A DNA stretch of 64,000 bases. Origin: Thermoplasmata archaeon. GTDB taxonomy: Archaea > Thermoplasmatota > Thermoplasmata > UBA10834. The first letter of the stretch is position 1, and each line of letters begins with the position of its first letter. This document shows positions 3,408 through 58,423 of the stretch, in pieces. The DNA is taken from NCBI GenBank assembly GCA_041554135.1, contig JBFFML010000003.1, positions 2,858 to 66,857 of the forward strand, in the 5' to 3' direction. Below the pieces are notes generated by a model that did no database searches, had not been told where the DNA came from, and saw nothing but the letters and a program-made list of their open reading frames with translations. A program made the translations under genes and the position numbers.

Positions 3408-3472
3408 GTCCGGTACCCCTTGGGTTAGAGCGGGAGGTACGCCTCCTCAGCCGATCATAGGAGACAATCGTC

Positions 3473-3736: not shown

Positions 3737-3771
3737 CCACCATTATCCTCACTCTTGAAATGCGGCCTCGA

Positions 3772-4122: not shown

Positions 4123-4269
4123 GGGAACGCCCCCTGGTGTTCGGTCGTTGGCGCAGCGTTGGTTTTGGCTTTCGGCGGTCTCCCAAGTCCCATGGATGAA
4201 CAAGAGGGCTTACGTGAAAGACGGGGCGTGCGAAGCGGCGCCCGTTCCTTGTGCGAACTCAGACGCGAA

Positions 4270-4440: not shown

Positions 4441-4762
4441 TCGTGTTCACCCCATCGGCCCTGGGTACCCACCCTGGCCATGGTATGCACGAAGCCGCGC
4501 TATGCGTCCACAGTTATTTAGACCTTTCCCACGGGCCGCTGAGGGTCCAGACTATGGTCCTCGCCATGGTATGGACGCCTCACCGACGGGTGCGTGCCCG
4601 TGGCGTCGGGGCCCCGTCGCCATCGGAGAAGTATTATATACAAATCAGCCACTGCAAACTCTCCGATGAACTCGGCTTTGACGTTCGTTATAGCCATCAT
4701 TAGCTGATTCTAGCTTGTTCATTGCCGAGTTTTTGCCCGTCCTTCTTGATGGAGTCACGGAG

Positions 4763-7852: not shown

Positions 7853-8315
7853 CCTTCGTCCTCCTCCCCCTCATCGTCGTGTCCTTCTCCATGTAGAAAG
7901 CGTCCATGCCTCTTCCGTAGTAGTCGACGATCAGAGATTTGATGCGGTATCCGTTTGACTCGTACATCCTCACGGCCACCTTGTTGTCGACGGAGGCCTC
8001 GAGGCCGAATCTCGTGACTCCCATCTCGCGCAACTCCTCCTCGCACGTCCCGAGCAGCTCGGACCCTATCCCGCGTCCCCGATGCTCAGGTAGGACGGCC
8101 ACAGAGGCGATCCTCCCTATGCCCTGCGCCCTCGAGAACAGGCACATGGCAGCGCCCACTATGGCATCGTCCTCGATTGCGACCAACGCGAAAGCGTGGT
8201 TCCTCGAGATCAGCGACCGTACGACCTGAGAGCTGAACCGTCCGTCCGCGAAGCACCGGTCCTCCGTCAACATGATGCCCGGCAAGTCCTCCAGCGACGC
8301 CCGCCTTATTCTCAC
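7839..8315 (-). CDS. GNAT-family N-acetyltransferase (RimI-like)
   Basis: VRIRRASLEDLPGI...AIVGAAMCLFSRAQGIGRIASVAVLPEHRGRGIGSELL...YESNGY carries GNAT motifs A and B. The start is a GTG at about 8315. Confidence 0.6.
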   Translation of the reverse strand: MRIRRASLEDLPGIMLTEDRCFADGRFSSQVVRSLISRNHAFALVAIEDDAIVGAAMCLFSRAQGIGRIASVAVLPEHRGRGIGSELLGTCEEELREMGVTRFGLEASVDNKVAVRMYESNGYRIKSLIVDYYGRGMDAFYMEKDTTMRGRRTKVRLS

Positions 8316-8401
8316 AGGGCACGGTAAGGCCGCTCCGCCGTTAAGTCGATTCCTCCCCACTCCGAAGGTCTTATATCCGGTCTTTGGCTACAGCATGTGG
8401 A

Positions 8402-9691: not shown

Positions 9692-9702
9692 ATGGGCCGT
9701 CC

Positions 9703-10776
9703 TCACCGGCCAGCCATTCTCGTGCAGTATTCCCTGTAGACGTCGACCGCCCTGGGTATGCTCGACACGTCGACCCACTCGTCGATCATGTGCGCTTGAG
9801 TGGGCTCGCCCGGCCCGCATACCATCAGCGTCGAGTTGTCCTGCTTGAACATGACCATCTCTGTCGCGTACGGCACGCTCAGGACGCGCGCGTCTTCGCC
9901 AACGACCTCCCTGAGGGCGCCGACGGCTGGCAGTCCCGGGTCCGTCTCGACGGGTTCCAGGAGGTGCATGACCTTCAGCTCGTATCGCAGGTCCCCAAGC
10001 CGCTCCTTCACGGCTTCGAGCAGGTCCTCTCCCGTCGTGTCCGGGGGGAATCTCGAATCCAGCTGCGCCTCGCACGCGTCGGGTATGACGTTCACCTGCG
10101 TGCCCCCACTTATCACATCCACGCACAGCGTGAGCTCCTCCGCGGGGTTGTCAGGCACCTTCAGGAGGCCCTCGATCCTCCCGAGTGCAGACATCATGTT
10201 CAGGATGGCGTTCTCTCCCAGGGTGGGCATGCTCGCGTGCGCGCTCTTCCCCGAGGTGCGTATGGAGAACTGGATCAGCCCCTTCTCACGGACCACTATG
10301 TCGAAGTCCGTGGGCTCGGCGACGACCACCGCCGGCGCGTCCTTGAGGAGATGCGCGCGGGCCACCGCGAGCGCGCCGTTCATGGTTATCTCCTCGTCGA
10401 GCGTGAGGCAGACGGAGAAGGGCACATCGTCCCGTGCTAGTCTCTCAGCGGCCAGCAGTATCGCCGCGCACCCAGCCTTCATGTCGCAAGTCCCGCGACC
10501 GTACATCCTGCCGTCGGCCATCTCCCCCTGCTCCTTGGTCCAGCCGCTCCCCAGCGGGACGGTGTCCAGGTGACCGGAGAGGACGACGCCGCCCTCGCCA
10601 TGGCTCGCGAATATCGCCGGCTTGTCGGCGTCGCCGTACTCCTCGGGCTCAAGGCCGATCCTGGCCAGCCGCTCCGAGACGAACCTCGCGAGCGGCAGCG
10701 CGTCGTCCCCCTCGGAACTCGCATGGAGGACGAGGTCCCTGAGCAGCGTCTCCGCCTCTTTCAGCAGTCCGCTCAC
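9703..10776 (-). CDS. M20-family peptidase (ArgE/DapE-like deacylase)
   Basis: GHLDTVP..., ...GRGTCDMKAG... and the C-terminal dimerisation region match M20. The start is a GTG at 10776 (GGGGAAGAG-GTG) overlapping the upstream gene's TGA. The track ORF extends further 5' only through spurious read-through. Confidence 0.7.
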   Translation of the reverse strand: MSGLLKEAETLLRDLVLHASSEGDDALPLARFVSERLARIGLEPEEYGDADKPAIFASHGEGGVVLSGHLDTVPLGSGWTKEQGEMADGRMYGRGTCDMKAGCAAILLAAERLARDDVPFSVCLTLDEEITMNGALAVARAHLLKDAPAVVVAEPTDFDIVVREKGLIQFSIRTSGKSAHASMPTLGENAILNMMSALGRIEGLLKVPDNPAEELTLCVDVISGGTQVNVIPDACEAQLDSRFPPDTTGEDLLEAVKERLGDLRYELKVMHLLEPVETDPGLPAVGALREVVGEDARVLSVPYATEMVMFKQDNSTLMVCGPGEPTQAHMIDEWVDVSSIPRAVDVYREYCTRMAGR

Positions 10777-11814
10777 CTCTTCCCCGTACCCTTCGATATG
10801 TGCGCTGCCAGCTTGACGAGGAGGCGGGACATGTCCCTGACATCCTTCAGGCTGGCGCACTCCGTCGGCGCGTGCGTATACTTCATCGGTATGCCCAGCG
10901 GCATCGCGAGCGCGCCGAACTCCTGTATCGCCGCGCCGTCGGTCGCGCCGCCCCCGGAGCCGCATTGGAGCGGTATCTTGTTCTTCCCCGCGACCTCCTC
11001 GACGAGCCTCCTCAGCTTCGGCGACGCAATGGCTGCGCTGTCGAACATCCTCATCGCGGGGCCACCGCCGATGAGTATCTTCTCGTACGTGTCGCCCTGC
11101 ATCGGCCCGTCGGTCGTTGTCATGGTGTCCACCGCGAAAACGTAGTCGGGCCTTAGCGTGAAACCTATGACCTTGGCGCCGCGCAGGCCTATCTCCTCCT
11201 GCACGCTCCACGCGAAGGTCAGCCTCGCGGGCAGGCCCATGCCCTTGACCTGGTCAAGGGCATCGAGCAACACGGCACAGCCAGCGCGGTCGTCCACGCC
11301 TCTGGAGCAGATCACGTCCTTCCCGATGTACGAGATGTCCTTCTTGAGCACCATCGGGTCGAGCACTCGTATCCCGAGCCTCTCCGTCTCCTTCCTGCTC
11401 CTCGTGCCGACGTCCACCCTGACATCCTCCCAGCTGACGACCTTCTTCCTGTCGTCGTTCTCAGTCATCAGATGCGGTGGTTTCAGCCCGAGCACGCCGG
11501 TGACCGTGCCTTTCGCCGTCTTGATCTCCACGACCCTGCCGACGAGCGTGCGGTCGTCTATGCCCCCAACCTTCCGTATCCGGAGCGAACCGTCGTCCTC
11601 CATCTTCGTGACGACGAGGCCGAGTTCGTCCATGTGTGCGACGAACACTATGTGCGGCCCCTCCGAGCCCACCGTCGTCAGGAGGTTGCCTATGTTGTCC
11701 TCCTCGACTTCGCAGCCCATCGCCTCGACCTTGGCCCTTATGTGTTCCCTTATGTCGTCCTCGTAGCCGGATACCCCGGGTATCCGTATCATCTCCTCGA
11801 TCATCTCTCTCATC
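10773..11814 (-). CDS. M42-family aminopeptidase (FrvX/TET-like)
   Basis: MREMIEEMIRIPGVSGYEDDIREHI...FVAHMDELGLVV...GRGVDDRAGCAVLLDAL... matches M42. The ATG start at 11814 overlaps the upstream gene's stop. This is a second M42 copy in the window, the first being at 1-476. Confidence 0.75.
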
Positions 11815-23386: not shown

Positions 23387-23662
23387 GTGAAGGTGAGGGT
23401 GAGGGTTGTCTTCGAAGGGCGCGTCCAGGGTGTATTCTTCAGGGCGAACACCCAGCGGGTCGCGGAATCCCTCGGCCTGGTCGGATGGGTCAGGAACACG
23501 GACGACGGCCGCGTCGAGGCGGTGTTCGAGGGGGAGGAGGAGACGGTGCGCAAGGCGATAGAGCGGTGCGAACACGAGCAGCCGTTCGCCGATGTCACGT
23601 CCAAGCGCGTGGAGTTCTCGGAACCGACGAGGGAGTTCCGCAGGTTCTCGATCGTGCATTGA
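23387..23662 (+). CDS. acyP: acylphosphatase
   Basis: A GTG start gives [49 protein letters not shown]..., the canonical V-x-G-x-V-Q-G-V-x-F-R acylphosphatase signature. Confidence 0.85.
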
Positions 23663-23677
23663 GCGTCATGGCTGCCC

Positions 23678-24865
23678 TCATTTTACGACGATGATGTAAG
23701 CGAGCGCGACCCCGGCGAGGGCGAGCGTCGCGATGAGGTCGAACCCGAGCACGAGCGCCACGATGACGAAGCCGACGCCGAAGACCTTCCCGCTGTTCAG
23801 GAAGAACTCGCGGAGGAGCACGCCCTTCTTCTTGAACCTCTCGAGCTTGTCCACGAGCATCGTGAAGAGGAACGACGGTATCATCGCGATCCAGAAGTAC
23901 GCGATGCTTATGGCGGTGAGGTACTCGTGAGGGCTCCCAGCGTACGCCGCGAACAGCACGCTTATCCCGCCGAAGGTTGCGCCGATCCTCACTATCGACG
24001 CCCTGTCGTGCAGCCGGTCGGAGAGATAGCCCAACGCGACCGTGGCCACGGCGCCCCAGAGGGCGAACAGGGAGAGATAGCCGCTCAGGGCGGCCTCGTT
24101 CTTGGCGAACTCGAAGCTGATGACAGGGATCGCTACCCAGAACACGCCGTCCTGGACGCCCTCGGCGAACAGCGCGGAGCATATCCTCCAGTCGATGCCC
24201 TTGAGGTCGAGGTCCACGTTGAACCGGCCGACGAGGTTCAGCTTCAACGACTGCAGCAACTCTGGTATGATTATCCTGCGCCTTATGCGCCACAGTATCT
24301 TGAAGCGTGATATGTAGAACAGGTCGAGGAGCGTCAGCGCGGCGCCCACCGAGAAGAGCATCTGGTACGAGTGGTATGTTATTATGAGTCCACCGAGGAG
24401 CGGGGCGACCGTCGTCAGCAGGGGGAATATGAGGAAATAGGCGCCTATGCCGGCACCGCGCTTCTTGCGCGAGGTTATGTGCATGACGAGCGCGAAGTAC
24501 GGCACCCAGAACGTGGCGATGTATGTCCCGAAGAAGAGCGGCGGTATGAGCACGAGGTGCCACCCGTCCAGGAAGATCAGCGCGATGTAGTACATCGCGA
24601 GGCATATCAGCGAAGTGGTTATCGACGCGGGGAAGTTCTTCAGTATGGGCCTCGACGCGAAGGCCATGATCACAGTCGGCACAGCGGCGCTGATGAATAT
24701 GAATATCGCGCAATCGAGGTAGCTGTGCCCCTCCCTTATCAGGTAGATGAGGGCGAAGGCGTTCGCGAGCGTGTTCGCGAACGCCACGAGCGTCTGGACG
24801 ATCACCAGTGATCCGTGCCTGTGCGAGAGCGCCAGGACGTAGTGTTTGAAGTGGGCCTGAGCCAT
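23678..24865 (-). CDS. MFS-type transporter (about 12 TM)
   Basis: The 395-aa protein is hydrophobic and shows two six-helix halves with basic loop motifs (SRKKRGAGIG, DRLHDRASIVRIG). Confidence 0.6.
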   Translation of the reverse strand: MAQAHFKHYVLALSHRHGSLVIVQTLVAFANTLANAFALIYLIREGHSYLDCAIFIFISAAVPTVIMAFASRPILKNFPASITTSLICLAMYYIALIFLDGWHLVLIPPLFFGTYIATFWVPYFALVMHITSRKKRGAGIGAYFLIFPLLTTVAPLLGGLIITYHSYQMLFSVGAALTLLDLFYISRFKILWRIRRRIIIPELLQSLKLNLVGRFNVDLDLKGIDWRICSALFAEGVQDGVFWVAIPVISFEFAKNEAALSGYLSLFALWGAVATVALGYLSDRLHDRASIVRIGATFGGISVLFAAYAGSPHEYLTAISIAYFWIAMIPSFLFTMLVDKLERFKKKGVLLREFFLNSGKVFGVGFVIVALVLGFDLIATLALAGVALAYIIVVK

Positions 24866-24940
24866 CGGCTGATCCTCTTCGACCCATCATGCTCTCAGGT
24901 TATTCATACGGTTTTCGTTCCGTCGCGACACGGGTGAGCG

Positions 24941-48223: not shown

Positions 48224-48660
48224 TGAGTGGTCGTATGGGCGACATCACCTTTACGGGGGACACACTCCGGTACATATCTCTCTTCGAGAAGCTCACGAAC
48301 ACGCAGGTGAAGGACTGCCTCGAGACGGAGGAGAAACTCGTCTTCGTCGTCGAGAAGGGCCAGGGCAGCAGGGCCGTTGGCAAGAAGGGCGAGAACGTCA
48401 TCCGCCTGAAGAACCTCACCGGGAAGAACATACATGTCATAGAGTACTCTGACGACCCTGAGACGTTCATACGTAACGTGTTCCACACGTACAGCGTCCA
48501 GTCCGTGTCGTTGGAGAACCGGGGCAGCATCATCCACGCCACGGTGACCGTCGACCCCAAGATGAAGGGGAAGGCGATAGGCAAGAACGGCAAGAACCTG
48601 AGGATAGCGCGCGAGGTCGTCAGCAGGCATCACAACGTGCAGAGCATCAGCGTCGCTTGA
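48223..48660 (+). CDS. nusA: transcription termination/antitermination factor NusA homolog (two KH domains)
   Basis: MSGRMGDITFTGDTLRYISLFEKLTNTQVKDC...GKKGENVIRLKNLTGKNIHVIEY...GKAIGKNGKNLRIAREVV carries two GxxG KH motifs. Its start overlaps the rpl30e stop by 1 nt. Confidence 0.8.
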
Positions 48661-49726
48661 GCGGCATCCTCTCTACCTCGAGCCGGTCCGCGGTCGGATA
48701 TTCCTCCACTATGTAACACTCAGCGTCGAGCTCGTCCGCGACCTCGGCGAGCACCCAGGCCGCCACCTCCAGCCGGTCCTTCTCGCGGTCCCTCCACAGG
48801 AGCTCGCGGGGCACTCCGTGCCCGACGATCAGCGCGTCCGCGACGCCGTCGGGGTCGGCCGTCTCGACGACGCCCTTGAGCAGGAGTCCCTCCTCCGTCA
48901 GCAGCTCGTGCGGTCTGCGCACGTTCCTGCCCCTTCGGGTGATCCTCCTCCTCAGCTGGACGCCGTCCTTGAAGGCGGCGGAGCAGTAGTGAAGCGGTAC
49001 GGAGCGGTGCGAGCCGAGGATGTCGAGGGCCAGCGACTCGCTGCCGAGGACGCCCGACGACACGTCGTCCCTGACGGTCATGCCGCGGGCGTTCAGGGCG
49101 TCGCAGTTCTCCTCGGAGAACTCCAGCTCGTTCAGGTTTACGAAGTCGAGCTCCTCCGATTCGGCGAAGCCAATCAGCCTGGTCGTGTCATCCCGCCGCC
49201 CGGGTATCGCGGGCACCTCCAGACCGACGGCCATGCCCCGCGCCCTGGCGGTCCTGACAGCCCCCTCGTATTGCGACCCGGCAAGCCGTCTCCACATGTT
49301 CGTCGGGGGGTGGAACCTGATCTCGTCCAGCCCCGCCTCCGCCACGGCTCGGATCTTCCGCGCGTCTGTCGTGGATGTGTAGAGGTGTATGTGGTGGTCG
49401 TCGCCGAACGACCGCTTCAGCGCGCGGATGGAGTCGGTCGTGCGCCTCAGCGCCGCCATGGGATCGCCTCCGGTGATGCCTGTCCCGAGCGCAGCCATCA
49501 GCCCGGCCTCCTCGACGGCCTCGGCGACGCGCTCTATGCGCGCCTCGTTCGCGAAGAAGACGTCCTTGCCTCGCTTGGCGCTGGACAATGGACAGTAGTA
49601 GCATCTCCGGCCGCACTTGCCGGTGACGAGGAGGACCAGTTTGGCGCCCTTCTCGCACAGCCTGCACCCTTCCGCCAAGGGTCCTCTGCGCGCGGACCCC
49701 TTCAGCATGCGCGCGGTCCTGGTCAC
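48647..49726 (-). CDS. radical SAM protein (pyruvate-formate-lyase-activating-enzyme-related, COG2108-like)
   Basis: CGRRCYYC (CxxxCxxC) lies near the N-terminus within GCRLCEKGAKLVLLVTGKCGRRCYYCP. This is a second radical SAM gene in the window. Confidence 0.6.
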   Translation of the reverse strand: MTRTARMLKGSARRGPLAEGCRLCEKGAKLVLLVTGKCGRRCYYCPLSSAKRGKDVFFANEARIERVAEAVEEAGLMAALGTGITGGDPMAALRRTTDSIRALKRSFGDDHHIHLYTSTTDARKIRAVAEAGLDEIRFHPPTNMWRRLAGSQYEGAVRTARARGMAVGLEVPAIPGRRDDTTRLIGFAESEELDFVNLNELEFSEENCDALNARGMTVRDDVSSGVLGSESLALDILGSHRSVPLHYCSAAFKDGVQLRRRITRRGRNVRRPHELLTEEGLLLKGVVETADPDGVADALIVGHGVPRELLWRDREKDRLEVAAWVLAEVADELDAECYIVEEYPTADRLEVERMPLKRR

Positions 49727-50457: not shown

Positions 50458-50554
50458 GCCCCTGAGCCGTGCCGGCGCACGCACATCGGGAGTTTAGCGA
50501 CATGCCAGACGTCGTCGTATCGCCCGTCGCGCGGCCGCGTTCCGCCCGATAACG

Positions 50555-50584
50555 TATATATAGCCCTCCCGGTATCGGAGGGCT
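50555..50584 (+). promoter_or_regulatory. TATA box (TATATATA) immediately followed by a perfect 8-bp inverted repeat (AGCCCTCC-N7-GGAGGGCT) upstream of aglB
   Basis: It lies about 100 nt upstream of the probable aglB ATG at 50686. The hairpin or operator covers the expected transcription start site. Confidence 0.4.
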
Positions 50585-50595
50585 ACTATCTCTAG

Positions 50596-53500
50596 GTGGA
50601 AGTATCGTTGGCTGAGACAAGGGATGATCCTCCTAGGCCTCTTCTGTCCGGGCTTTTCCGCAGGGGTGGAGGACCTAACGAGTTCATGAAGTGGCTCGGG
50701 GCGAACTGGGCGCCATTGGCCATGCTCATATTCATATTCCTACTCGCGCTGTTCGTGCGCTCGTTCTTCGCCTTCGAGATCAGCGCCGACAACGACTACA
50801 TCGTCTCCGGCGGGTCCGACTCGTACTACTGGCGCAGGATCATCGACTATCATGTTGACACGGGCGATTCCATGTACTGGGACTCGCTGATCAACTTCCC
50901 GATTGGCATCAGGAACCCGAGGCCGCCACTCTACAGCATGTCCGTCGCGGTGCCGGCCGTGGCGGTGTCGGACCTGTTCGAGAGCATGAGCGACGCCGTC
51001 GGGTTCATGTTCGTGTGGTCGACGGCCTTCTGGGGCGCGCTGACCGTCATCCCGGTCTACTTCCTGGGGAAGGAGACGTTCGGCAGACGGGCGGGCCTGG
51101 TAGCGGCCTTCCTGCTGGCGCTTATGCCCAGCCACGTCCAGAGAAGCGTGCTGTCCAACGCGGACCACGACGCGTTCATCCTGTTCTTCATAGTCCTGAC
51201 CTTCTACTTCATGCTGAAGGCCGTGACGGAGCAACGTCATGATAGATGGGTGGGCAGTTGGAAGAGCCGGTCGAGTATCTCGGCTGGGCTCTCAACTTAC
51301 TTCTCCGATAGCAGGACGGCCATCCTGTACGCCCTCATGGCAGGGATGTCCTTCGGCTGCGTCATCATGGCCTGGGTCGGCTTCGCCTACGTGGCCGTGC
51401 TCATGCTCGCCTATCTGCTGGTGCAGGTACTGATCAACAAGTTCAAGAACATCGACTCTACGAGCGTAACGATGCTCGTGCTCATCACGATGGGTTTCGG
51501 CTACCTGCTGGCGTTCCCGGTGTACTACGAGCAGTCGCTTATCGCGACCAGGTTCGATGTCCCCGTCTACCTCTTCGCCGGGGCGATACTCGTCGCGGCG
51601 TTGTTCGTCATCACGAGGGACTATCCATGGACGATCACCCTGCCGGCGATCGTCGGTACGCTGGTCGTCGGCGTCCTCGCGATAAGCGCGTTCTACCCCG
51701 CGCTCGGAGAGGCCATAATGACGGGCCAGGGATACTTCGTGCAGAGCAAGCTATACTCCACCATCGCGGAGGCGCGCGCGCCTGAGTTCAGCGAGTTGGC
51801 GATGGCCTTCGGCATGGTCACGTTCTTCGTGTCGCTCATAGGCCTCATCTACGCCGTGACGAGGATACCCAAGCAGACGTCTGCAGGGTCGACATTCATG
51901 ATCGTCTGGCTCGCGGCGGCCATATTCATGGCGATATCCGCTGGCAGGTTCATGTTCAACGCCGCGCCCGCTTTCGCAATCGCGGCCGGCTGGGTCCTCG
52001 TGATCATGGTCGACAAGATAGACTTCGCTGGCGTCGTGAAGTCGATGAAAGGCGCCAGCGGCTCGTTCCTGCAGGTGTTCAGGAAGAGCGTGAAGATACG
52101 CCATGTGACCGCGGCGCTGTTCCTGGCGTTCTTCATCGTGGTGCCGAACGTGTGGTTCAGCGTGGACGCGGGCATACCGGCGGAGACCAAGCGGGAGTAC
52201 GACAAGCAGATATACAACAGCTTCCCCGAGTTCATGAGACCCGCGGGCTACGACACCCACAACGGTTCGAACTGGTATCTCGGCGCCTTCGGTTTCTCGT
52301 TGCCGTTGCCCTCGCAGTACTATCCCGCGGCATGGGACTGGTTCTCGGAGCAGGATTCCGACATCTACCCCGAGACGACACGTCCGGCATACGTCGCCTG
52401 GTGGGACTACGGTTTCGAGGCGGTCGAGGAAGGCGACCATCCGACCGTCGCAGACAACTTCCAGAACGGGTACCAGGTGGCCGGTAACATCATAATGGCC
52501 CAGGGCGAGGACGACGCGATCGCGCTGTTCTCCCTGAGGCTAATGCAGCATGTCTACGTCACCGACGAGGACATGAAGGAGCGCATAGTCGCTTTGTTGG
52601 AGAAGCACGGGGTCGCGAGCGACGACATCGACTACACATTCACGGGCCCCGCGCAGGAGATCATAGACGCCGTGCTCGACGACCCTGAGAAGTACGGACC
52701 CATGGCCAGCGATATGAGCGCGACGAACGCCAGGCTGGTGTACGGTCGGGAGGTGCTATCGAGCATAGGCCTTGAGCCGTTGGTCGCTTTCTACGACGAG
52801 CTCTGCGAGCTCCTCAGCTGGGAGATACGATACTTCAATGTCGACTCCAGGATGTTCCCCTCGTCCGCCACCAACCCGGGGATATTCTACGCCCCGGCCA
52901 AGTTGGCGGACAGGCGTATACTCGGAGGGTCCATCCCGGTGGACTTCTTCGAGATCAAAGCGGTCACCGACCAGGGCCAGACAATCGCCCTCGAGGACGT
53001 GACGAGCAACATGAGGATAGTCGATTACTCGATAGAGTACAAGGACATGTTCTACGACAGCCTGTTCTACAGCGCCATGTGCGGCTTCAGCGGCGACGAC
53101 ATCGGCCTGGAGAAGAAGGGACTCCCGGGAATGAGCGGCACGGTCTCCACGCAGGAACCGATGCCCGGCTGGAACATGACGCATTTCAAGCTGGTCTACA
53201 GGACGAGCTATTACAACCCGTACCCAGCCGACCTCGTGCCGTTCCACCAGGACGCGTGGAGGGCCGTCAGCTACGACGAGGCCCAGGAGCTCGCGAAGGA
53301 GATACGCGCCGGCGACATCGAAGGCGTGATCGACCAGAGTGCGAGGTCGCTGTACATGAGCGGCACGGTCTTCCTGAAGTACTATCACGGAGCCTACCTG
53401 AACGGTACGGTCACGACCGAGGATGGCAAGGTCGTCGCGGGAGCGCGCGTCACCATACAGGACGAGTACGGCATACCGCACGACACGTGTCTGACGGACG

Positions 53501-56500
53501 ACGACGGCGCCTACTCGCTCCTCGCCCCGTTCGGCAACCTGTCGCTCGTCATCTCGTCTGGCGACGCCGCGCTCAACACGAGGCTTGAGGGAAGCACGGT
53601 CATCGCGGAGTTCGATGTCGACGTCACGGACGACCAGTCGATGAGGGTGAGGCAGGACCTCGACCTCGACGGCGTGTACGATTACATCATCACCAAGGAT
53701 TGCACGGTTGGCAGCGGGGAGGTCATGGGGGACGTGTTCTGGGACCTCAACTTCGACGGCGAGTATTCGCTGACAGACGACGACCTCATACCCGAGGGGA
53801 CGGTCTACTTCGAGAACAAGGTGAGCGGGGAGGAGGCATCAGTCGAGTTCTCGGAGGGTTTCTACACCGTCCCACTGCCGCCAGGTCAGTACAGGGTGTA
53901 CGCTAACGTGCTCGGCACGGAACTTACGATGTCGCTCCAGGAGAACGTGACCTCGGGCAAGAAGAGCGAGGTCAACCTGGCCGTGAAGCCGGCCATGCTC
54001 AAGGGCAACGTCACGACTGCCGACGGCGTCCCCGTCGCCGGCATGGAGCTCGCGCTCAGGAACGCCTTCTTCGACACCGAGTTCACGGCCGTGACGAACG
54101 CGACGGGCGCATACATCTTCTCGAAGGTCATAGGCGGCAAGTACACCCTGTCGACCGAGGATCCGGAACTCATCGTCTTCAACGCGTTGATATCGCTCGA
54201 TGTGGAGTCCGTCGAGGAGAGGGATGTCACCGTGTTCGAGAGGCGGAGCGTGAAGTTCAGGGTGTCTCTCGACGGCGTCCCGGTGCCTTACGCGCCCTAC
54301 ACGATCCACAACATGTACTATCCGAACGAGTACATCTCCGGCGTGACGGACAGATATGGGTGGGTCAAGGCCGACCTGTCGAAGGGGTACTGGTCCATAT
54401 ACTCCGTGTACAGCGACGGCGCCGAAGACTACGCCGGGTACGTCGGATTGGACCTCTACTACGAGGATAGCGCGGCGGGCACCATCGCGCTCGAGCCGGC
54501 CTTCACCGTCGAGGGCAGCCCGAGGTTGTCCGGACCGTACGGGCTCATCAGGGACACGTTCGTCGTGTTCGTCGCCGAGGATGGCGCGAGACTGTTCTTC
54601 AGGACCGACAACCTGGGCAACTTCGACACCCGTCTCCCAGAGGGGACCTACGATGTGCTCTGCTGGGCCGTGTCGGGGTCGAGCGTGCTCTCGGAGACGT
54701 TGACGGTCGATGAGGACCTCACAGGCCTTAGGCTGTACGCAGAGGGCAGCGTGATCGTCACCGGAAGCGTCTGGCTCGACGAGGACAGTTCGGGGTCGAG
54801 GGGAGCTTCCGAGCTCGGCGCCTTCGCGTTGCTCGAGGTCACCGACGCCTATGGCAGGACATACGCGACGAGGGCGGACCACGGGGGCGACTACAGGTTC
54901 CTCGTGGTCAAGGGCATGAGGGTCACATTCACAGTCGCCGACCCGGGCTACTCCGGATGGAGCATGAGCGCCCTGTACGGCAACGAGGCGAAGAACGTCA
55001 CGCTGTTCGCGACACCGGACGATGTGGTCGTCTCTGGGTGCGTCATACACGACGGCGCAGGCGTGAGGGGCGTCGAGGTGGCGTTCCTGCCGGACACGAT
55101 AGCCAAGGAGGCGATATACGTGGTGACGGGCACCGGGGGTTACTACACCGCGCATGTGCCTCCGGGCGACTACACCATCCTCGTCGACGATGACGTGGGC
55201 GTCATCGGGGGCGAGGTACTGCAGTTCGAGGCCGAAGAGACCATCGAGCCGACCGGCGAGGTCGTGCTTTACGACATCTATCCCGCGCGCAGGGTCCAGA
55301 TCTCCGGCAACGTGCTCGGAGCGGCGGAGGTGACGGAGGTCAGGATGGACGGCCCGGAGGAGGTCGTCGTCGACATCGACGGGTTCACATACAGCGCATG
55401 CGTCATCCCAGGTACATATCACATATACGCCTCAGGAATGACGGACGACACCGTGCTGGCGGGCGTGCTCAAGGTCTATGTCCAGGCAGGCGCGACACAG
55501 TTCGACGTGTACCTGGACGAGGCACGCGAAGTGTCGGGCGTGGTGTACATCGACTCCGCCCCGGCGACGAGCGCCGTCGCCATCTCCGTGTTCACGGAGG
55601 ACGGCGCCAAGGTCGCGGCTGTGACGTCTGTGACGGGCGCGTTCAGCCTTCACCTCCCGTCCGGCAGCTACGCGTTCACCTACAGCCTCGAGTCCACCAG
55701 CGTCGAGGACGGCCGGACGCTGTACGTGGAGTACGTCTCATCCGAGATGGTCAGCGTCGCCTCGTCGAACGTCACTCTGAGCCCGCACCTGGAAATGCGG
55801 CTCGACAACACGACGCTCACGGGAACGGTCACCGACGCCGACGGTGCGCCTGTCCAGGCGCAGATACAGCTCACCCCCAACACTCGGTATGGGCTCGCGG
55901 CGACTTTCTACACCGACGCCTCGGGTGACTTCGAGGCGTGGATACAGCCGGGAGACTATACCGTGTACGTCAAGCGGTCGCAGGATGCCAGCGTGTCGCT
56001 CGGCTTCGTCGGGATATCGAGGAACGAGGCCAAGGACCACGATGTGCAGGTGTCCGAGGGGAGGTTCCTGTCCGGTAGGATCACGGCCGGCGGATACCCC
56101 GTCGCCGGCTCGTTGACGGTCTCGTCGGGCGACGCCTCGCTGAGTGTCTCGAGCGACGCCGACGGCTACTTCAGGTCGCTGCTGCCGCAGGGCTCCTACG
56201 TCGTCTCGTCGAGCACGCAGAGGACGGAAGGCGGGATGACCATCCGGTACTCGCTCACGACGACCGTGGACCTGGGGTCGTTCGACCGCTATGTCAACCT
56301 CAAGCTCAACAGGGAGAACACTCGGTCTGTGACGGCCAGCTGGAACGCCTCCCTGGCGCTGCCGGCGGGCGTCGGCCAGACCGTCACCTATGTGTTCGTC
56401 GTGGAGAACACGGGCAACGTGGGGGACGACTTCGAATGCCGGTTCATGGGCACCGGGTTCGACGTGACCTTCGTGCCTGAGAGCCAGTTCATAGATTTCG

Positions 56501-57195
56501 GGACGAACGGGAACACCGCCACCTTCGTCGCCCAGGTGACGGTCCTCGAGGACGCTGTCGCTGGCGACACCCCTGTCCCGATCCAGATGCGGTCCGAGAC
56601 GTCGTCGAGCGCACGGGCAGACCTGGAGCTCATCGTCAAGGTGCCGCCCGTGTATTCCACGGAGGTGACGACGGTAGATGAGGAGGGGGCGTCGGTCGTC
56701 GGCGACACGACGAGGACGCTCATACATGTGATTAACACCGGCAACACGCAGGCCGAGTACGATCTGGCCATAACGAACCTCGAGTACCTCGTGAGCCGCG
56801 GTTGGAGCGCGCGGGCGATGCTCACGGGCTCCGGGGAGGAGGTCGGTGTCATGAATATAGAGTACCAGGGTCACAGGGAGATATACATCGAGTTCACGTC
56901 CATCAGGAGTGACCCCGACCCGAAGGCGGAGGCGACGGTCCTCGTGTGGTCCGTCGCGGACCCAGGGCAGACCACGGTCGCCTCGATACCCATCATCCTC
57001 CCGGACATCAGCATCGGCCCCGGAGGCCTGGATGTCGTTCGGGACGACTTGACATACGAGTACGATCCATCCGACCTGTACATCAACATCGGCCTGGTCT
57101 GCGCAATCGGCGCCCTGGTCGCCATGTTCGTGTTGCTCAGGCGGAGGAAGGGCCTCGGCGGCCTCAGGAAGAAGGGCAAGGGTGATAAGCGATGA
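50596..57195 (+). CDS. aglB: oligosaccharyltransferase AglB/STT3 fused to a C-terminal region of about 1300 aa carrying S-layer-like beta-sandwich repeats and a membrane anchor (2199-aa ORF; probable start ATG 50686)
   Basis: The N-terminal 13-TM core has the EL1 acidic motif region and WWDYGFEAVEEGDHP (WWDYG) at about aa 600. From about aa 900 onward there are at least 8 carboxypeptidase-regulatory-like repeats (GTVTTEDGKVVAGARVTIQDEYG..., GNVTTADGVPVAGMELALRN..., GTVTDADGAPVQAQIQL..., GRITAGGYPVAGSLTVSS...). CARDB/DUF11-like units follow (VTYVFVVENTGNVGDDF, IHVINTGNTQAEYDLAI), ending in a TM helix plus RRRKGLGGLRKKGKGDKR. The ORF is continuous. Confidence 0.85.
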   Translation: MEVSLAETRDDPPRPLLSGLFRRGGGPNEFMKWLGANWAPLAMLIFIFLLALFVRSFFAFEISADNDYIVSGGSDSYYWRRIIDYHVDTGDSMYWDSLINFPIGIRNPRPPLYSMSVAVPAVAVSDLFESMSDAVGFMFVWSTAFWGALTVIPVYFLGKETFGRRAGLVAAFLLALMPSHVQRSVLSNADHDAFILFFIVLTFYFMLKAVTEQRHDRWVGSWKSRSSISAGLSTYFSDSRTAILYALMAGMSFGCVIMAWVGFAYVAVLMLAYLLVQVLINKFKNIDSTSVTMLVLITMGFGYLLAFPVYYEQSLIATRFDVPVYLFAGAILVAALFVITRDYPWTITLPAIVGTLVVGVLAISAFYPALGEAIMTGQGYFVQSKLYSTIAEARAPEFSELAMAFGMVTFFVSLIGLIYAVTRIPKQTSAGSTFMIVWLAAAIFMAISAGRFMFNAAPAFAIAAGWVLVIMVDKIDFAGVVKSMKGASGSFLQVFRKSVKIRHVTAALFLAFFIVVPNVWFSVDAGIPAETKREYDKQIYNSFPEFMRPAGYDTHNGSNWYLGAFGFSLPLPSQYYPAAWDWFSEQDSDIYPETTRPAYVAWWDYGFEAVEEGDHPTVADNFQNGYQVAGNIIMAQGEDDAIALFSLRLMQHVYVTDEDMKERIVALLEKHGVASDDIDYTFTGPAQEIIDAVLDDPEKYGPMASDMSATNARLVYGREVLSSIGLEPLVAFYDELCELLSWEIRYFNVDSRMFPSSATNPGIFYAPAKLADRRILGGSIPVDFFEIKAVTDQGQTIALEDVTSNMRIVDYSIEYKDMFYDSLFYSAMCGFSGDDIGLEKKGLPGMSGTVSTQEPMPGWNMTHFKLVYRTSYYNPYPADLVPFHQDAWRAVSYDEAQELAKEIRAGDIEGVIDQSARSLYMSGTVFLKYYHGAYLNGTVTTEDGKVVAGARVTIQDEYGIPHDTCLTDDDGAYSLLAPFGNLSLVISSGDAALNTRLEGSTVIAEFDVDVTDDQSMRVRQDLDLDGVYDYIITKDCTVGSGEVMGDVFWDLNFDGEYSLTDDDLIPEGTVYFENKVSGEEASVEFSEGFYTVPLPPGQYRVYANVLGTELTMSLQENVTSGKKSEVNLAVKPAMLKGNVTTADGVPVAGMELALRNAFFDTEFTAVTNATGAYIFSKVIGGKYTLSTEDPELIVFNALISLDVESVEERDVTVFERRSVKFRVSLDGVPVPYAPYTIHNMYYPNEYISGVTDRYGWVKADLSKGYWSIYSVYSDGAEDYAGYVGLDLYYEDSAAGTIALEPAFTVEGSPRLSGPYGLIRDTFVVFVAEDGARLFFRTDNLGNFDTRLPEGTYDVLCWAVSGSSVLSETLTVDEDLTGLRLYAEGSVIVTGSVWLDEDSSGSRGASELGAFALLEVTDAYGRTYATRADHGGDYRFLVVKGMRVTFTVADPGYSGWSMSALYGNEAKNVTLFATPDDVVVSGCVIHDGAGVRGVEVAFLPDTIAKEAIYVVTGTGGYYTAHVPPGDYTILVDDDVGVIGGEVLQFEAEETIEPTGEVVLYDIYPARRVQISGNVLGAAEVTEVRMDGPEEVVVDIDGFTYSACVIPGTYHIYASGMTDDTVLAGVLKVYVQAGATQFDVYLDEAREVSGVVYIDSAPATSAVAISVFTEDGAKVAAVTSVTGAFSLHLPSGSYAFTYSLESTSVEDGRTLYVEYVSSEMVSVASSNVTLSPHLEMRLDNTTLTGTVTDADGAPVQAQIQLTPNTRYGLAATFYTDASGDFEAWIQPGDYTVYVKRSQDASVSLGFVGISRNEAKDHDVQVSEGRFLSGRITAGGYPVAGSLTVSSGDASLSVSSDADGYFRSLLPQGSYVVSSSTQRTEGGMTIRYSLTTTVDLGSFDRYVNLKLNRENTRSVTASWNASLALPAGVGQTVTYVFVVENTGNVGDDFECRFMGTGFDVTFVPESQFIDFGTNGNTATFVAQVTVLEDAVAGDTPVPIQMRSETSSSARADLELIVKVPPVYSTEVTTVDEEGASVVGDTTRTLIHVINTGNTQAEYDLAITNLEYLVSRGWSARAMLTGSGEEVGVMNIEYQGHREIYIEFTSIRSDPDPKAEATVLVWSVADPGQTTVASIPIILPDISIGPGGLDVVRDDLTYEYDPSDLYINIGLVCAIGALVAMFVLLRRRKGLGGLRKKGKGDKR

Positions 57196-58004
57196 CCGGA
57201 CGCAATGCGTGGTCGCGTTCGAGGCGCCGGTTGGCCGCGCTGATCGCGCTCGCGGCGCTCGCAGTGCCGTTGTTCGCCGTCCTGCCAGTCACGCAGGACG
57301 CGCAGGCCTACAGCGACATAGGGATCGACCTGGACTGCCCCACCTTCGCCGGCACGCTCGAGAAGGTCGAGTGCAGGCTCACGGTCACCGGGGGGCCCGC
57401 GGGGGACGTCGGGGGCAACTTCAGCTACAAGATCGAGATAATCGCCGACAACAAGACCGGCTCCAGCGTCACACCGCCCAGCGGCTCGTCGGCGACGGGC
57501 GTGTTCAACTTGACTGTGACGATGCCCGGTGAGGCGCAGCAGACGATCAAACTGCGCGTCAACGTGACGTCCAAGGCGCTCCCCTCCAGCGATACGCAGG
57601 ACAAGGTCAGGGACTTCGAGATCAAGGTCGTGGAGCCGATCGTGATCACCGCGACGGTGTTCAACACGGGCGCGGTCGAGGCGAAGAACGTGACCGCGAA
57701 GTTCTACGCGGACAGCGTGTTCATCGGAGAGCGGAAATTCGACCTCGCGGCGGGCGCGAGCATCACGCTCACGCACAACTGGACGTGGCTGAACGTCGAT
57801 ACGGGGAAGCACACGGTGACGGTCGTCGTCGACGACAAGGACGGGATCGTGGAGTTCAGCAACGGCAACAACGCGTACACGATGACCATCTACGTGGGGG
57901 AGGAGAGCAACCCGTTAGGGGGCGTCCTCACGATAGGCGTCATCGTGATGTCCGTGATGGTATTCCTGACGTATCTACAGAAGCCTGCGCCGAGGAAGAA
58001 GTGA
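57192..58004 (+). CDS. secreted cell-surface protein with CARDB-like domains and a C-terminal TM/basic anchor, rich in N-x-S/T sequons
   Basis: A signal peptide (RRRLAALIALAALAVPLFAVLP) is followed by CARDB-like VTATVFNTGAVEAKNVTAKFYADSVFIGERKFDLAAGASITLTHNWT. The C-terminus is LTIGVIVMSVMVFLTYLQKPAPRKK. Its ATG overlaps the aglB TGA (ATGA). Confidence 0.7.
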   Translation: MTGRNAWSRSRRRLAALIALAALAVPLFAVLPVTQDAQAYSDIGIDLDCPTFAGTLEKVECRLTVTGGPAGDVGGNFSYKIEIIADNKTGSSVTPPSGSSATGVFNLTVTMPGEAQQTIKLRVNVTSKALPSSDTQDKVRDFEIKVVEPIVITATVFNTGAVEAKNVTAKFYADSVFIGERKFDLAAGASITLTHNWTWLNVDTGKHTVTVVVDDKDGIVEFSNGNNAYTMTIYVGEESNPLGGVLTIGVIVMSVMVFLTYLQKPAPRKK

Positions 58005-58096: not shown

Positions 58097-58423
58097 GTGT
58101 CTGAGAACATCCACGATCTGACAGATGCGAACTTCGACGAGAAGGTCAAGGGTTCGCCAAGGCTAGTGGTTGACTGTTGGGCCCCTTGGTGCGGACCTTG
58201 CAGGATGATCGCCCCCACGCTCGAGGCGCTCGCCAAGGACTATGACGGGAAGGTCGCGTTCGCCAAGCTCAACACGGACGAGGCGGCCAAGACTGCCATG
58301 TCGCTCGGGATACACAGCATCCCGACGCTGATATTCTTCAAGGACGGCGAACAGGTCGAGCGACTGACGGGCGCCCATCCGAGGGCCAACATCGAGGCGG
58401 TGCTGAAGAAGCACTTCGGCTGA
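58097..58423 (+). CDS. trxA: thioredoxin
   Basis: A GTG start is followed by the WCGPC active site (VVDCWAPWCGPCRMIAP). It is 108 aa long. Confidence 0.9.
   Translation: MSENIHDLTDANFDEKVKGSPRLVVDCWAPWCGPCRMIAPTLEALAKDYDGKVAFAKLNTDEAAKTAMSLGIHSIPTLIFFKDGEQVERLTGAHPRANIEAVLKKHFG

What the first reader, a model, noticed from the sequence alone, without database searches (positions are those of the whole stretch)
50596..58004. Giant AglB: oligosaccharyltransferase core fused in-frame to about 1300 aa of S-layer-like repeats, co-operonic with a sequon-rich surface protein
Archaeal AglB/STT3 proteins are normally about 700-1000 aa, consisting of a 13-TM core plus a periplasmic domain containing WWDYG. 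Here the ORF is 2199 aa. After a normal AglB core (WWDYGF at about aa 600) it runs without a stop through at least 8 carboxypeptidase-regulatory-like beta-sandwich repeats and CARDB/DUF11-like units. It ends in a single TM helix plus a poly-basic tail (RRRKGLGGLRKKGKGDKR), which looks like a cell-surface anchoring or sorting signal but lacks the PGF motif. The next gene overlaps by ATGA. It encodes a signal-peptide, CARDB-like surface protein with the same TM-plus-basic-tail ending and many N-x-S/T sequons. The enzyme that N-glycosylates surface proteins therefore appears to be covalently built into an S-layer-like scaffold and is encoded with a likely substrate. A hairpin sits at its promoter (50555-50584) and a thioredoxin gene follows.
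Basis: partly seen in the sequence, partly recalled or inferred. Interest (0 to 1): 0.85.

Follow-up and report, generated by a model that had tools for sequence, protein, structure and literature searches.

The report
Giant AglB glycosyltransferase with membrane partner
The window encodes a real 2,195-residue form of AglB, the archaeal enzyme that attaches sugars to proteins: its normal catalytic core is followed by 13 beta-sandwich domains and a second membrane anchor, and it is always paired with (or, in distant relatives, fused to) a small sequon-rich membrane protein, a design shared by many Thermoplasmata including cultivated Methanomassiliicoccus luminyensis that I could not find described in the papers I could search.

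Summary
The ORF is real and is not an assembly artefact. 116 cluster representatives are 2,150-2,226 aa long (SD 13 aa), with no domain-sized indels down to 35% identity. 80 GTDB species carry it, as does cultured M. luminyensis (WP_081579967.1). The true start is a conserved TTG at 50608, giving 2,195 aa.

All catalytic motifs are invariant, and the modelled N-half matches A. fulgidus AglB-L. The tail is 13 beta-sandwich domains, a TM helix and a basic tail. Its structural matches are generic, so "S-layer-like" is not supported.

The main new result concerns the downstream CARDB protein. It follows the giant AglB in 73 of 76 loci, including relatives with 31-35% core identity that sit in unrelated neighbourhoods. 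It is fused to the AglB C-terminus in 14 distant representatives. It is also a remote paralog of the AglB C-terminal module. This points to a two-part oligosaccharyltransferase (OST) machine rather than an enzyme encoded beside a substrate.

The promoter hairpin is not conserved, and the thioredoxin gene is only a syntenic neighbour. The architecture is common in databases under generic names. I found no description of it in the papers I could search.

The parts
50555..50562 (+). TATA-box-like element TATATATA of the AglB promoter, preceded by the conserved AACG
   Evidence: Invariant or nearly invariant in 36 aligned loci. Its role as a promoter is inferred from its position and the archaeal TATA consensus; it was not tested.
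50563..50585 (+). Inverted repeat AGCCCTCC / GGAGGGCT with loop CGGTATC, lying between the TATA box and the inferred transcription start
   Evidence: Present in the window. Folding z-score -1.44. 72.2% of cells paired against 72.6% in shuffles, with no covariation. The primary sequence is conserved but the pairing is not.
50594..50599 (+). Shine-Dalgarno-like AGGTGG, which contains the mechanical GTG 'start' at 50596
   Evidence: Conserved in 36 loci, about 8-10 nt upstream of the conserved TTG.
50608..57195 (+). Giant AglB coding sequence (TTG start, 2,195 aa, TGA stop)
   Evidence: Full-length homologs are listed.
50608..52275 (+). N-terminal multi-pass membrane core (STT3 domain) carrying GGSD75SYY, D190-H191-D192, T389-I-A-E392 and R451
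   Evidence: Pfam STT3. Aligns to A. fulgidus AglB-L 5GMY/3WAJ. These residues are invariant in 62 sequences. Modelled helices. Foldseek E=4e-25 to 7E9S. Motif coordinates.
52276..53385 (+). Extracytoplasmic catalytic domain with WWDYG (nt 52399-52413) and a DSRM...K stretch (aa 750-769) that reads as a DK-type motif with an insertion
   Evidence: WWDYG is invariant. The whole N-half matches AglB-L with a target-normalised TM-score of 0.64. No Pfam family covers aa 601-930. The DK reading is mine and was not tested.
53386..56316 (+). Eleven transthyretin-like / CarboxypepD_reg-type beta-sandwich domains (D1-D11). DxDxDG-type acidic loops lie at aa 1021-1026 and 1049-1055.
56317..57000 (+). Two 'NTGN'-motif beta-sandwich domains (D12, D13)
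   Evidence: DUF7507 scores 21.9 bits, below its cut-off, and D13 has no hit. hhalign aligns D12-D13-TM-tail with the partner family (91% probability, E=9.5e-7).
57082..57192 (+). C-terminal TM helix (aa 2163-2181) and cytoplasmic basic tail RRRKGLGGLRKKGKGDKR
   Evidence: Hydropathy scan. Modelled helix. 79 of 90 giant representatives carry a C-terminal TM plus basic tail.
57192..58004 (+). Partner protein, 270 aa: signal peptide (AQA|Y near aa 38), an N-terminal beta domain, a CARDB domain, a TM helix (aa 242-262) and a basic tail. Six sequons at N76, N87, N106, N124, N166 and N196. Overlaps the AglB stop by ATGA.
   Evidence: A partner is found downstream of the giant AglB in 73 of 76 loci.

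Best explanation
This is the clade-typical oligosaccharyltransferase of a large part of the class Thermoplasmata (Methanomassiliicoccales and uncultured sister lineages). A complete and apparently active AglB has its extracytoplasmic catalytic domain continued by a fixed series of 13 beta-sandwich domains. The chain then returns to the cytoplasmic membrane through a C-terminal TM helix with a basic cytoplasmic tail, so the ectodomain would form a two-point-anchored arch.

The enzyme is translated together with a small type-I membrane protein (signal peptide, beta domain, CARDB domain, TM helix, basic tail). That protein is a remote paralog of the AglB C-terminal module. It most likely docks onto AglB as a non-catalytic subunit and is itself N-glycosylated at six conserved sequons.

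The stalk evolves fast in sequence while its length is held almost constant. This fits a spacer or ruler role in the exterior protein layer of these S-layer-less cells better than a specific ligand-binding role.

Shown here: the architecture, the motifs, the conservation, the gene pairing, the fusions and the paralogy. Inferred: the membrane topology, complex formation, glycosylation of the partner and the spacer function.
For: Identity as AglB.
- Pfam STT3 scores 70.5 bits.
- The core aligns to A. fulgidus AglB-L.
- D75, D190/H191/D192, TIAE, R451 and WWDYG are invariant in 62 sequences (coordinates).
- The AlphaFold N-half (pLDDT 84.6, pTM 0.73) has AglB-L 7E9S/5GMY/3WAK as its best PDB match (E=4e-25, TMt 0.64), followed by STT3A/B and PglB.

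Real and conserved.
- 116 full-length representatives average 2,184 +/- 13 aa.
- No internal gap of 15 or more columns across sequences of 35-71% identity.
- 80 GTDB species loci.
- M. luminyensis WP_081579967.1.
- Of the 150 best 50%-identity representatives of the core, 90 are 2,000 aa or longer, and 79 of those carry a C-terminal TM plus basic tail.

Stalk.
- All-beta model with pLDDT 86.6 and a terminal helix.
- Only generic sandwich matches.
- Conservation gradient: core and D1 are 42-59% identical to the far clade, against 19-29% for D2-D13.

Partner link.
- ATGA overlap with an SD-like GGGTGAT upstream.
- A partner-HMM hit lies directly downstream in 73 of 76 loci. The exceptions are two fused forms and one frameshifted assembly.
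- The pair persists where the radical-SAM, pyrF, thioredoxin, translin and purD synteny is lost.
- It also persists in classes with 31-35% core identity in unrelated neighbourhoods (E=1.8e-30 and 1.3e-43).
- The partner profile hits the extreme C-terminus of 14 distant giant AglBs. Two checked loci of this kind have no separate partner gene.
- hhalign of the partner against AglB D12-D13-TM-tail gives 91% probability, E=9.5e-7.

Sequons.
- Six alignment columns carry a sequon in 49-84% of 67 partner sequences.
Against: - There is no direct evidence of a complex.
- The two C-terminal TM helices are poorly conserved (27% to the far clade), which does not suggest specific helix packing.
- Conserved sequons fit a pure-substrate reading equally well.
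- I could not scan whole genomes for a second, conventional AglB.
- The hhalign score may be inflated by the TM and basic-tail composition.
- The partner HMM was built largely from the same loci used in the 73-of-76 count. That count therefore shows presence and is not an independent discovery.
- The spacer function rests only on length constancy, and the stalk dimensions are estimates from general domain sizes.
Confidence: 0.6

Rival explanations
1. Enzyme plus dedicated substrate. The CARDB protein is simply an abundant surface glycoprotein co-transcribed with its glycosylating enzyme, with no stable complex. The AglB tail is a generic surface-exposed coat.
For: The partner has 6 sequons against 2.1 +/- 1.2 expected, and the neighbourhood baseline is 0.38 per 100 aa. 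Sequon positions are conserved. The partner has a signal peptide and a TM anchor, like many archaeal surface glycoproteins.
Against: A 4-nt start/stop overlap implies roughly equimolar synthesis, which is unusual for an enzyme and a bulk substrate. The module is fused to the AglB C-terminus in 14 distant representatives that, where checked, lack a separate gene. It is also paralogous to the AglB C-terminal module. Substrates are not normally retained next to their enzyme across every genomic rearrangement.
Confidence: 0.2
2. Structural protein with a vestigial enzyme. The giant protein is mainly an envelope component, and a separate, normal-length AglB carries out N-glycosylation.
For: The tail makes up 58% of the protein. 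The gene lies among housekeeping genes and not in an agl cluster. Whole genomes could not be scanned for paralogs.
Against: Every catalytic motif is invariant across 62 sequences down to about 45% identity in the N-terminal half, and WWDYG is present in 145 of 150 representatives. The core is the most conserved part of the protein. That pattern is what selection on catalysis would produce.
Confidence: 0.07
3. Inter-membrane tether. In double-membraned Methanomassiliicoccus-like cells the N-terminal core sits in the cytoplasmic membrane and the C-terminal helix inserts into the outer membrane, so the 13-domain stalk sets the width of the pseudo-periplasm.
For: M. luminyensis has been described as having an electron-dense outer layer read as a second membrane (PMC4243693; PMC6098224), and it carries the giant AglB. 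Thirteen sandwiches of about 4 nm each could span tens of nanometres (inference from general domain sizes).
Against: The strongly basic tail follows the positive-inside rule for the cytoplasmic membrane. In P0270 the helix is followed by a 7-residue basic loop and then the partner's signal-type helix. That is a hairpin, and both helices of a hairpin must sit in one membrane. The only other isolate in the order whose ultrastructure I read about has a single membrane (PMC10673518), and I did not determine whether it carries the giant AglB. The ultrastructural data for M. luminyensis are described as poor.
Confidence: 0.05
4. Assembly chimera or missed stop or frameshift that joins AglB to an unrelated surface-protein gene.
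For: None beyond the unusual length.
Against: The same length and domain order occur in more than 200 independent cluster representatives from NCBI, ENA, JGI and Logan assemblies. These include closed chromosomes and a cultured isolate. No domain-sized indels are present.
Confidence: 0.01

Closest known systems
Archaeoglobus fulgidus AglB-L (PDB 3WAJ, 3WAK, 5GMY, 7E9S)
   Same: Multi-pass STT3 core, the acidic motifs in the first external loop, TIXE, WWDYG and an extracytoplasmic catalytic domain. It is the best sequence match (E=4e-14) and the best structural match (E=4e-25, TMt 0.64).
   Different: The crystallised chain is 875 residues against 2,195 here. It has no 13-domain stalk, no second membrane anchor and no coupled partner gene. 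Identity in the structural alignment is only about 15%.
Long AglBs with peripheral beta-rich units after the catalytic core (for example Pyrococcus furiosus AglB-L with CC, IS, P1 and P2 units). This comparison is recalled from the literature and was not tested here.
   Same: Extra beta-rich domains are appended to the catalytic domain. D1 here is as conserved as the core and may play a similar role.
   Different: Those proteins have one or two peripheral units and end there. This one continues for a further 12 domains and re-enters the membrane.
Eukaryotic OST complex: STT3 plus type-I membrane subunits with lumenal beta-sandwich domains (Ost1/ribophorin I, Wbp1/OST48)
   Same: Functional analogy only. 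A catalytic STT3-family subunit is accompanied by single-pass membrane proteins whose beta-sandwich domains lie on the glycosylation side and which have short basic cytosolic tails.
   Different: No sequence homology was detected. The partner matches only CARDB structural-genomics domains in the PDB. The structural relationship was not tested. Here most of the accessory mass is fused to the catalytic chain.
NOMO (BOS complex subunit): a rod of transthyretin-like Ig domains with a C-terminal TM helix and a short tail
   Different: All hits are below the Pfam cut-off of 27 bits and are no better than those to carboxypeptidase D, pilins or SdrD. NOMO is not fused to an enzyme. There is no evidence of specific common ancestry.
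CARDB-domain cell-surface proteins (PDB 3IDU, 2KL6, 2L0D)
   Same: The partner's second domain is a bona fide CARDB domain: Pfam 49-52 bits and PDB profile hits of E=3e-12 to 2e-8.
   Different: The partner family has a fixed length of 245-277 aa, an extra N-terminal domain with no Pfam family, conserved sequons, and obligate linkage to a giant AglB.

Membership tests
AglB / STT3 oligosaccharyltransferase (GT66) | N-terminal multi-pass membrane domain of the STT3 type | tested here: met
   Pfam PF02516 scores 70.5 bits against a cut-off of 24.5, covering aa 72-485. The modelled helices superpose on AglB-L.
AglB / STT3 oligosaccharyltransferase (GT66) | Catalytic acidic motifs in external loop 1 and after TM helices 3-4, and the TIXE motif in external loop 5 | tested here: met
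   GGSD75SYY, D190-H191-D192 and T389-I-A-E392 are invariant in 62 sequences. The first two align with the corresponding AfAglB-L positions.
AglB / STT3 oligosaccharyltransferase (GT66) | WWDXG motif in the extracytoplasmic domain | tested here: met
   WWDYG at aa 602-606. It is invariant and present in 145 of 150 representatives.
AglB / STT3 oligosaccharyltransferase (GT66) | DK / DKi / MI motif that forms the Ser/Thr pocket | tested here: inconclusive
   D750-S-R-M...K769 has an invariant D and R and a nearly invariant K, and reads as a DK motif with an insertion. This is my own reading; it was not superposed on a solved structure.
AglB / STT3 oligosaccharyltransferase (GT66) | Overall fold of core plus catalytic domain | tested here: met
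   Foldseek top hits are 7E9S, 5GMY and 3WAK (E=4e-25 to 4e-23, TMt 0.61-0.64), followed by STT3A/B, yeast Stt3 and PglB.
AglB / STT3 oligosaccharyltransferase (GT66) | Transfer of a lipid-linked glycan to Asn in N-X-S/T | not testable with these tools
   Requires an enzyme assay or glycoproteomics.
TIGR04154 archaeo_STT3 (archaeosortase-A-system-associated AglB) | Score at or above the curated cut-off | tested here: not met
   215 bits against a cut-off of 450. Only model positions 2-595 of 831 are matched.
PGF-CTERM / archaeosortase-sorted surface protein | PGF motif immediately before the C-terminal TM helix and basic tail | tested here: not met
   Neither protein has a PGF motif. No sorting-signal family was hit in NCBIfam at E<=0.1. 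The fused relative P0270 keeps the helix as an internal TM segment.
Archaeal S-layer protein | Recognisable S-layer family, or a specific structural match to a lattice-forming protein | tested here: not met
CarboxypepD_reg (transthyretin-like) domain repeats | Pfam PF13620 at or above its cut-off | tested here: met
CARDB domain (within AglB, D12-D13) | Pfam PF07705 hit | tested here: not met
   No CARDB hit at E<=1. There is only a DUF7507 hit of 21.9 bits, below its cut-off of 27. Remote similarity to the CARDB-containing partner is seen by hhalign.
CARDB domain (partner protein) | Pfam PF07705 at or above its cut-off | tested here: met
   49.1 and 51.8 bits against a cut-off of 22.7. PDB CARDB domains are hit at E=3e-12.
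Eukaryotic OST3/OST6 thioredoxin subunit (for the downstream thioredoxin gene) | Lumenal thioredoxin domain joined to a four-TM membrane domain | tested here: not met
   The product is a 108-aa soluble WCGPC thioredoxin with no signal peptide or TM helix. The gene is absent from many loci that keep AglB and the partner. The OST3_OST6 Pfam hits in homologous loci only reflect the shared thioredoxin fold.

The most novel reading that the evidence does not exclude
Archaeal OST is not always a single-subunit enzyme. In this large Thermoplasmata clade it would be a two-component holoenzyme, fused into one chain in some lineages. The AglB catalytic core is built into a length-calibrated, doubly anchored arch of 13 beta-sandwich domains. 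A paralogous, glycosylated type-I membrane subunit docks at the foot of the arch. This would be a prokaryotic counterpart of the non-catalytic beta-sandwich subunits of the eukaryotic OST complex, and a defining structural element of the exterior protein layer of these wall-less cells.
Probability: 0.35. Interest if true: 0.78.

Novelty: new variant of a known kind. Interest (0 to 1): 0.58.

Why it matters
AglB is generally treated as a stand-alone enzyme of roughly 600-1,000 residues. Here a whole clade, including a cultivable human-gut methanogen, uses a form more than twice that size, with a second membrane anchor and an obligate partner. This gives the first concrete candidate for an accessory OST subunit in Archaea. 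It can be tested directly in M. luminyensis.

It also bears on how S-layer-less Thermoplasmata build their outer protein layer. A fixed-length 13-domain arch attached to the glycosylation enzyme is an obvious candidate component.

There is a practical point too. Annotation pipelines name these proteins 'carboxypeptidase regulatory-like domain-containing protein' or 'glycosyltransferase family 39 protein'. Surveys of N-glycosylation genes can therefore miss or mis-size AglB in these genomes. In addition, the database gene start for this contig is probably wrong.

Tried and rejected
- Chimera or frameshift: rejected by cross-genome conservation.
- Promoter hairpin as a conserved RNA or DNA structure: rejected. 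There is no covariation, pairing equals the shuffled level, there is no Rfam hit, and the folding z-score is -1.44.
- SD-sequestering pairing between CTAGGTGGA (50591-50599) and TCCTCCTAG (50627-50635): inspection of the 36-locus alignment showed no consistent compensatory change, so I did not pursue it.
- Thioredoxin as an OST3/6-like subunit: rejected.
- Direct BLASTP similarity between the partner and the AglB C-terminus: none. Only profile-profile comparison detects it.
- Specific homology of the stalk to NOMO, S-layer proteins or alpha-2-macroglobulin: only generic fold matches.
- Partner similarity to TRAP-beta: E=0.064 and 13 bits, which is chance level.
- afdb50 fold search: the library was unavailable.
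- Look-up of the window's own contig by protein: not on record.
- Shorter relatives (under 1,300 aa) as natural short forms: most end in the middle of a domain and are contig-truncated fragments. A few of about 1,130-1,290 aa may be genuine.
- Literature: six searches combined AglB, oligosaccharyltransferase or STT3 with Methanomassiliicoccales, Methanomassiliicoccus, Thermoplasmata, 'carboxypeptidase regulatory' or CARDB. None found a description of this architecture.


Full report
1. THE OBSERVATION

The reading frame 50596-57195 (+) is open for 2,199 codons, and a 270-codon ORF starts at 57192. The four-base ATGA overlap is real: the sequence reads ...GAT AAG CGA TGA CCG..., with an SD-like GGGTGAT seven bases upstream.

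The mechanical GTG start at 50596 is not the true start. It lies inside a conserved AGGTGG Shine-Dalgarno-like motif. The TTG at 50608 and this motif are invariant in 36 aligned loci. The peptide that begins there, (M)AETRDDPPRP..., is conserved at protein level. The product is therefore 2,195 aa. The database gene call for the identical protein (P0001, 2,169 aa, starting at ATG 50686) is probably 26 residues too short.

2. WHAT THE PROTEIN IS

The N-terminal 930 residues are a full AglB.
- Pfam STT3 scores 70.5 bits.
- The sequence aligns with A. fulgidus AglB-L over residues 14-574 of the crystallised chain.
- GGSD75SYY, D190-H191-D192, T389-I-A-E392, R451 and W602-W-D-Y-G606 are invariant in 62 homologs that fall to about 45% identity in this half (coordinates).
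- An AlphaFold model of aa 5-1200 (pLDDT 84.6, pTM 0.73) has AglB-L structures as its best PDB matches (E=4e-25, TM-score 0.64 on the target). Eukaryotic STT3A/B, yeast Stt3 and bacterial PglB follow.
- The protein falls below the cut-off of the archaeosortase-associated AglB subfamily TIGR04154 (215 against 450 bits).

From aa 931 the chain is all-beta up to a terminal helix (model of aa 1000-2199, pLDDT 86.6). I parse it as follows:
- eleven transthyretin-like (CarboxypepD_reg-type) sandwiches, D1-D11, aa 931-1907;
- two sandwiches with NTGN motifs, D12-D13, aa 1908-2135;
- a linker, a TM helix (aa 2163-2181) and the tail RRRKGLGGLRKKGKGDKR.

3. NOT AN ARTEFACT, AND NOT UNIQUE

A search of 5.8 billion proteins returned 116 full-length cluster representatives. 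They are 2,150-2,226 aa long (mean 2,184, SD 13) at 36-71% identity, from NCBI, ENA, JGI and Logan assemblies. Nineteen sequences spanning 35-71% identity align with no internal gap of 15 or more columns.

The best 80 loci from GTDB species representatives all carry the giant form. They come from Thermoplasmata and Methanomassiliicoccales genome bins, including closed chromosomes. The cultured type strain Methanomassiliicoccus luminyensis B10 has a 2,173-aa ortholog, WP_081579967.1, which NCBI names 'carboxypeptidase regulatory-like domain-containing protein'.

An exhaustive phmmer search of the core against 1.84 billion 50%-identity representatives found 304 with E<=1e-30. Of the best 150:
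- 90 are 2,000 aa or longer, falling into classes of about 2,100, 2,190, 2,400 and 2,500-3,170 aa;
- 79 of those 90 end in a TM helix plus basic tail;
- 145 carry WWDYG.

Most shorter entries stop in the middle of a domain and are contig fragments. It is not met for the literature: six full-text searches found no description.

4. THE PARTNER PROTEIN (THE MAIN NEW RESULT)

The downstream protein has the following layout:
- an Arg-rich n-region, a hydrophobic core and an AQA|Y cleavage-type site;
- an N-terminal beta domain with no Pfam family;
- a CARDB domain (49-52 bits);
- a TM helix and a basic tail.

It is sequon-rich. It has 6 sequons, against 2.1 +/- 1.2 in composition-preserving shuffles and 0.38 per 100 aa in nine neighbouring cytoplasmic proteins. 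Across 67 distinct orthologs, some only 26% identical, six alignment columns hold a sequon in 49-84% of sequences. The AglB stalk itself is not enriched (9 against 5.9 +/- 2.2).

Four lines of evidence tie the partner to AglB more tightly than 'a substrate encoded nearby'.
(a) A partner-profile hit lies directly downstream on the same strand in 73 of 76 loci that have a complete giant ORF and enough flanking sequence. The three exceptions are two fused forms and one frameshifted assembly.
(b) The pair persists where the surrounding synteny (radical-SAM, pyrF, thioredoxin, translin, purD) is gone. It also persists in two classes with only 31% and 35% core identity that sit in unrelated neighbourhoods. 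There the downstream ORFs match the partner profile at E=1.8e-30 and 1.3e-43 and carry 8 and 10 sequons.
(c) The partner profile hits the extreme C-terminus of 14 distant giant AglBs. In P0270 (2,667 aa) the AglB C-terminal helix is followed by a 7-residue basic loop, then a signal-peptide-like helix, then a full partner. In 13 other representatives a partner-type CARDB-TM-tail module forms the C-terminus. Both loci I checked lack a separate partner gene.
(d) Profile-profile comparison aligns the partner (positions 41-254) with AglB D12-D13-TM-tail at 91% probability, E=9.5e-7. Plain BLASTP sees nothing.

The P0270 hairpin also fixes the topology. The AglB tail is cytoplasmic, and its last helix sits in the same membrane as the partner's signal helix.

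5. HOW IT MOST LIKELY WORKS

Shown:
- an intact catalytic AglB;
- a stalk whose sequence drifts (19-29% identity to the far clade for D2-D13, against 42-59% for the core, the catalytic domain and D1) while its length and domain count stay fixed;
- a second membrane anchor;
- an obligate, sometimes fused, paralogous partner.

Inferred:
- The ectodomain forms a doubly anchored arch. At roughly 4 nm per sandwich (general knowledge, not measured) its contour is about 50 nm, so it could stand about 20-25 nm above the membrane.
- The partner docks near the C-terminal foot as a non-catalytic subunit and is itself glycosylated.
- The stalk acts as a spacer within the exterior protein layer.

For context, Thermoplasmatales lack S-layers and carry an unordered protein layer about 20 nm thick (PMC12448462). 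M. luminyensis has been described as having an electron-dense outer layer read as a second membrane (PMC4243693). M. alvi has a single membrane and no wall (PMC10673518). I did not establish that Thermoplasmatales or M. alvi carry the giant AglB.

I give 0.6 to this overall picture. That breaks down as about 0.97 for 'a genuine clade-wide giant AglB' and about 0.55-0.6 for 'the partner is a physical subunit'.

6. RIVALS

- Substrate-only partner (0.2). It fits the sequons but not the fusions, the paralogy or the translational coupling.
- Vestigial enzyme with a second AglB elsewhere (0.07). It is contradicted by invariant catalytic motifs, but whole genomes were not scanned.
- Inter-membrane tether (0.05). 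It is contradicted by the positive-inside tail and the P0270 hairpin.
- Artefact (0.01 or less).

7. SIDE CLAIMS

The promoter hairpin is a perfect 8-bp repeat in this genome only. Across 36 loci pairing is 72.2%, against 72.6% in shuffles, with no compensatory changes. What is conserved is the primary sequence of the whole block from the TATA box to the start codon.

The thioredoxin is a soluble WCGPC protein. It is separated from the partner gene by 92 nt that contain an AT-rich box. It is missing from many Methanomassiliicoccales loci, so it is a syntenic neighbour and not part of the module.

The rest of the window is housekeeping, and there is no agl gene cluster.

8. VERDICT

This is a new variant of a known kind. 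It is real, conserved and widespread in sequence databases. It is auto-annotated under misleading names, and I could not find it described in the papers I could search. Interest is 0.58. The obligate partner raises a testable question about multi-subunit OST in Archaea, and a cultured organism is available to answer it.

Noticed in passing
window 50548-50640, with a second motif at 50503-50510: The block from the TATA box through the SD, the TTG start and the first ~10 codons is conserved at DNA level in 36 loci whose AglB proteins are only 46-71% identical (consensus GATAACGTATATATAGCxCCCxxGGTATCGGTGGGCTACTATCxCxAGGTGGxAxxATCxTTGGCxGAG). That is better conserved than the coding sequence. A TGCCAGAY motif about 45 nt upstream of the TATA box is also positionally conserved, but it is not enriched elsewhere in the window (6 matches against 4.4 expected). 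Methanomassiliicoccales loci have different arms (GGGGTG...CACCCC) around a similar GTTATCAG core. The function is unknown; it could be a regulator site or an initiator region.
   Followed up: partly
window 50596-50686: The public gene call for the identical protein (P0001) starts at ATG 50686. Conservation shows the start is the TTG at 50608. Several homologs are likewise called with L or V starts or are truncated at the N-terminus.
   Followed up: yes
window 58097-58423; L001-L004, L085: The thioredoxin gene downstream gives Pfam OST3_OST6 hits in homologous loci. This looks suggestive next to an OST gene but only reflects the shared thioredoxin fold. The protein is soluble, and the gene is absent from many loci that keep the AglB-partner pair.
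   Followed up: yes
L087 (P0270, gene 1751-9754) and L088 (P0302, gene 3096-10886): Distant giant AglBs of 2,600-2,670 aa carry the partner module in the same polypeptide. In one it follows a TM-loop-TM hairpin, and in the other it forms a terminal CARDB-TM. Neither locus has a separate partner gene, and the neighbouring genes are completely different. P0270 rests on a single contig, so an indel artefact cannot be excluded for that one case.
   Followed up: partly
P0329 (L089), P0270, P0257, P0316, P0367: Other giant-AglB classes are themselves very sequon-rich (47-72 sequons, 1.7-3.2 per 100 aa). The window's AglB has only 11 (0.5 per 100 aa), and its partner carries the sequons instead. Part of the difference is compositional, since Asn content ranges from 2.9% to 9.6%.
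   Followed up: no
window 53656-53673 and 53740-53760 (aa 1021-1026, 1049-1055): Conserved DxDxDG-type acidic loops (DLDLDG, WDLNFDG) lie at the D1/D2 junction, with invariant Asp and Gly in 62 sequences. They resemble the Ca2+-binding loops of SdrD B domains, and Pfam SdrD_B gives a hit on the neighbouring D3 (aa 1143-1194). This suggests a metal-stabilised joint next to the catalytic domain.
   Followed up: no
L085 16775-18522 and L003 18573-22462: In M. luminyensis and a related genome bin, a very large Beta_helix/NosD-repeat protein (1,939 aa in M. luminyensis) lies a few genes downstream of the AglB module. It is another candidate envelope protein.
   Followed up: no
window 48647-49726 (-): A radical-SAM plus DUF8061 gene is conserved divergently upstream of pyrF in nearly all loci of the clade. 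Its function is unknown.
   Followed up: no
window 23598-24890 (-): A 431-aa ORF with no Pfam family at E<=1e-5. I did not check whether it is a real gene.
   Followed up: no
window 57621-57905 (partner CARDB domain): A weak Pfam hit to TRAP_beta (translocon-associated protein beta): E=0.064, 13.1 bits against a cut-off of 22.4. This is chance level and is recorded only because TRAP sits beside OST in eukaryotes.
   Followed up: no
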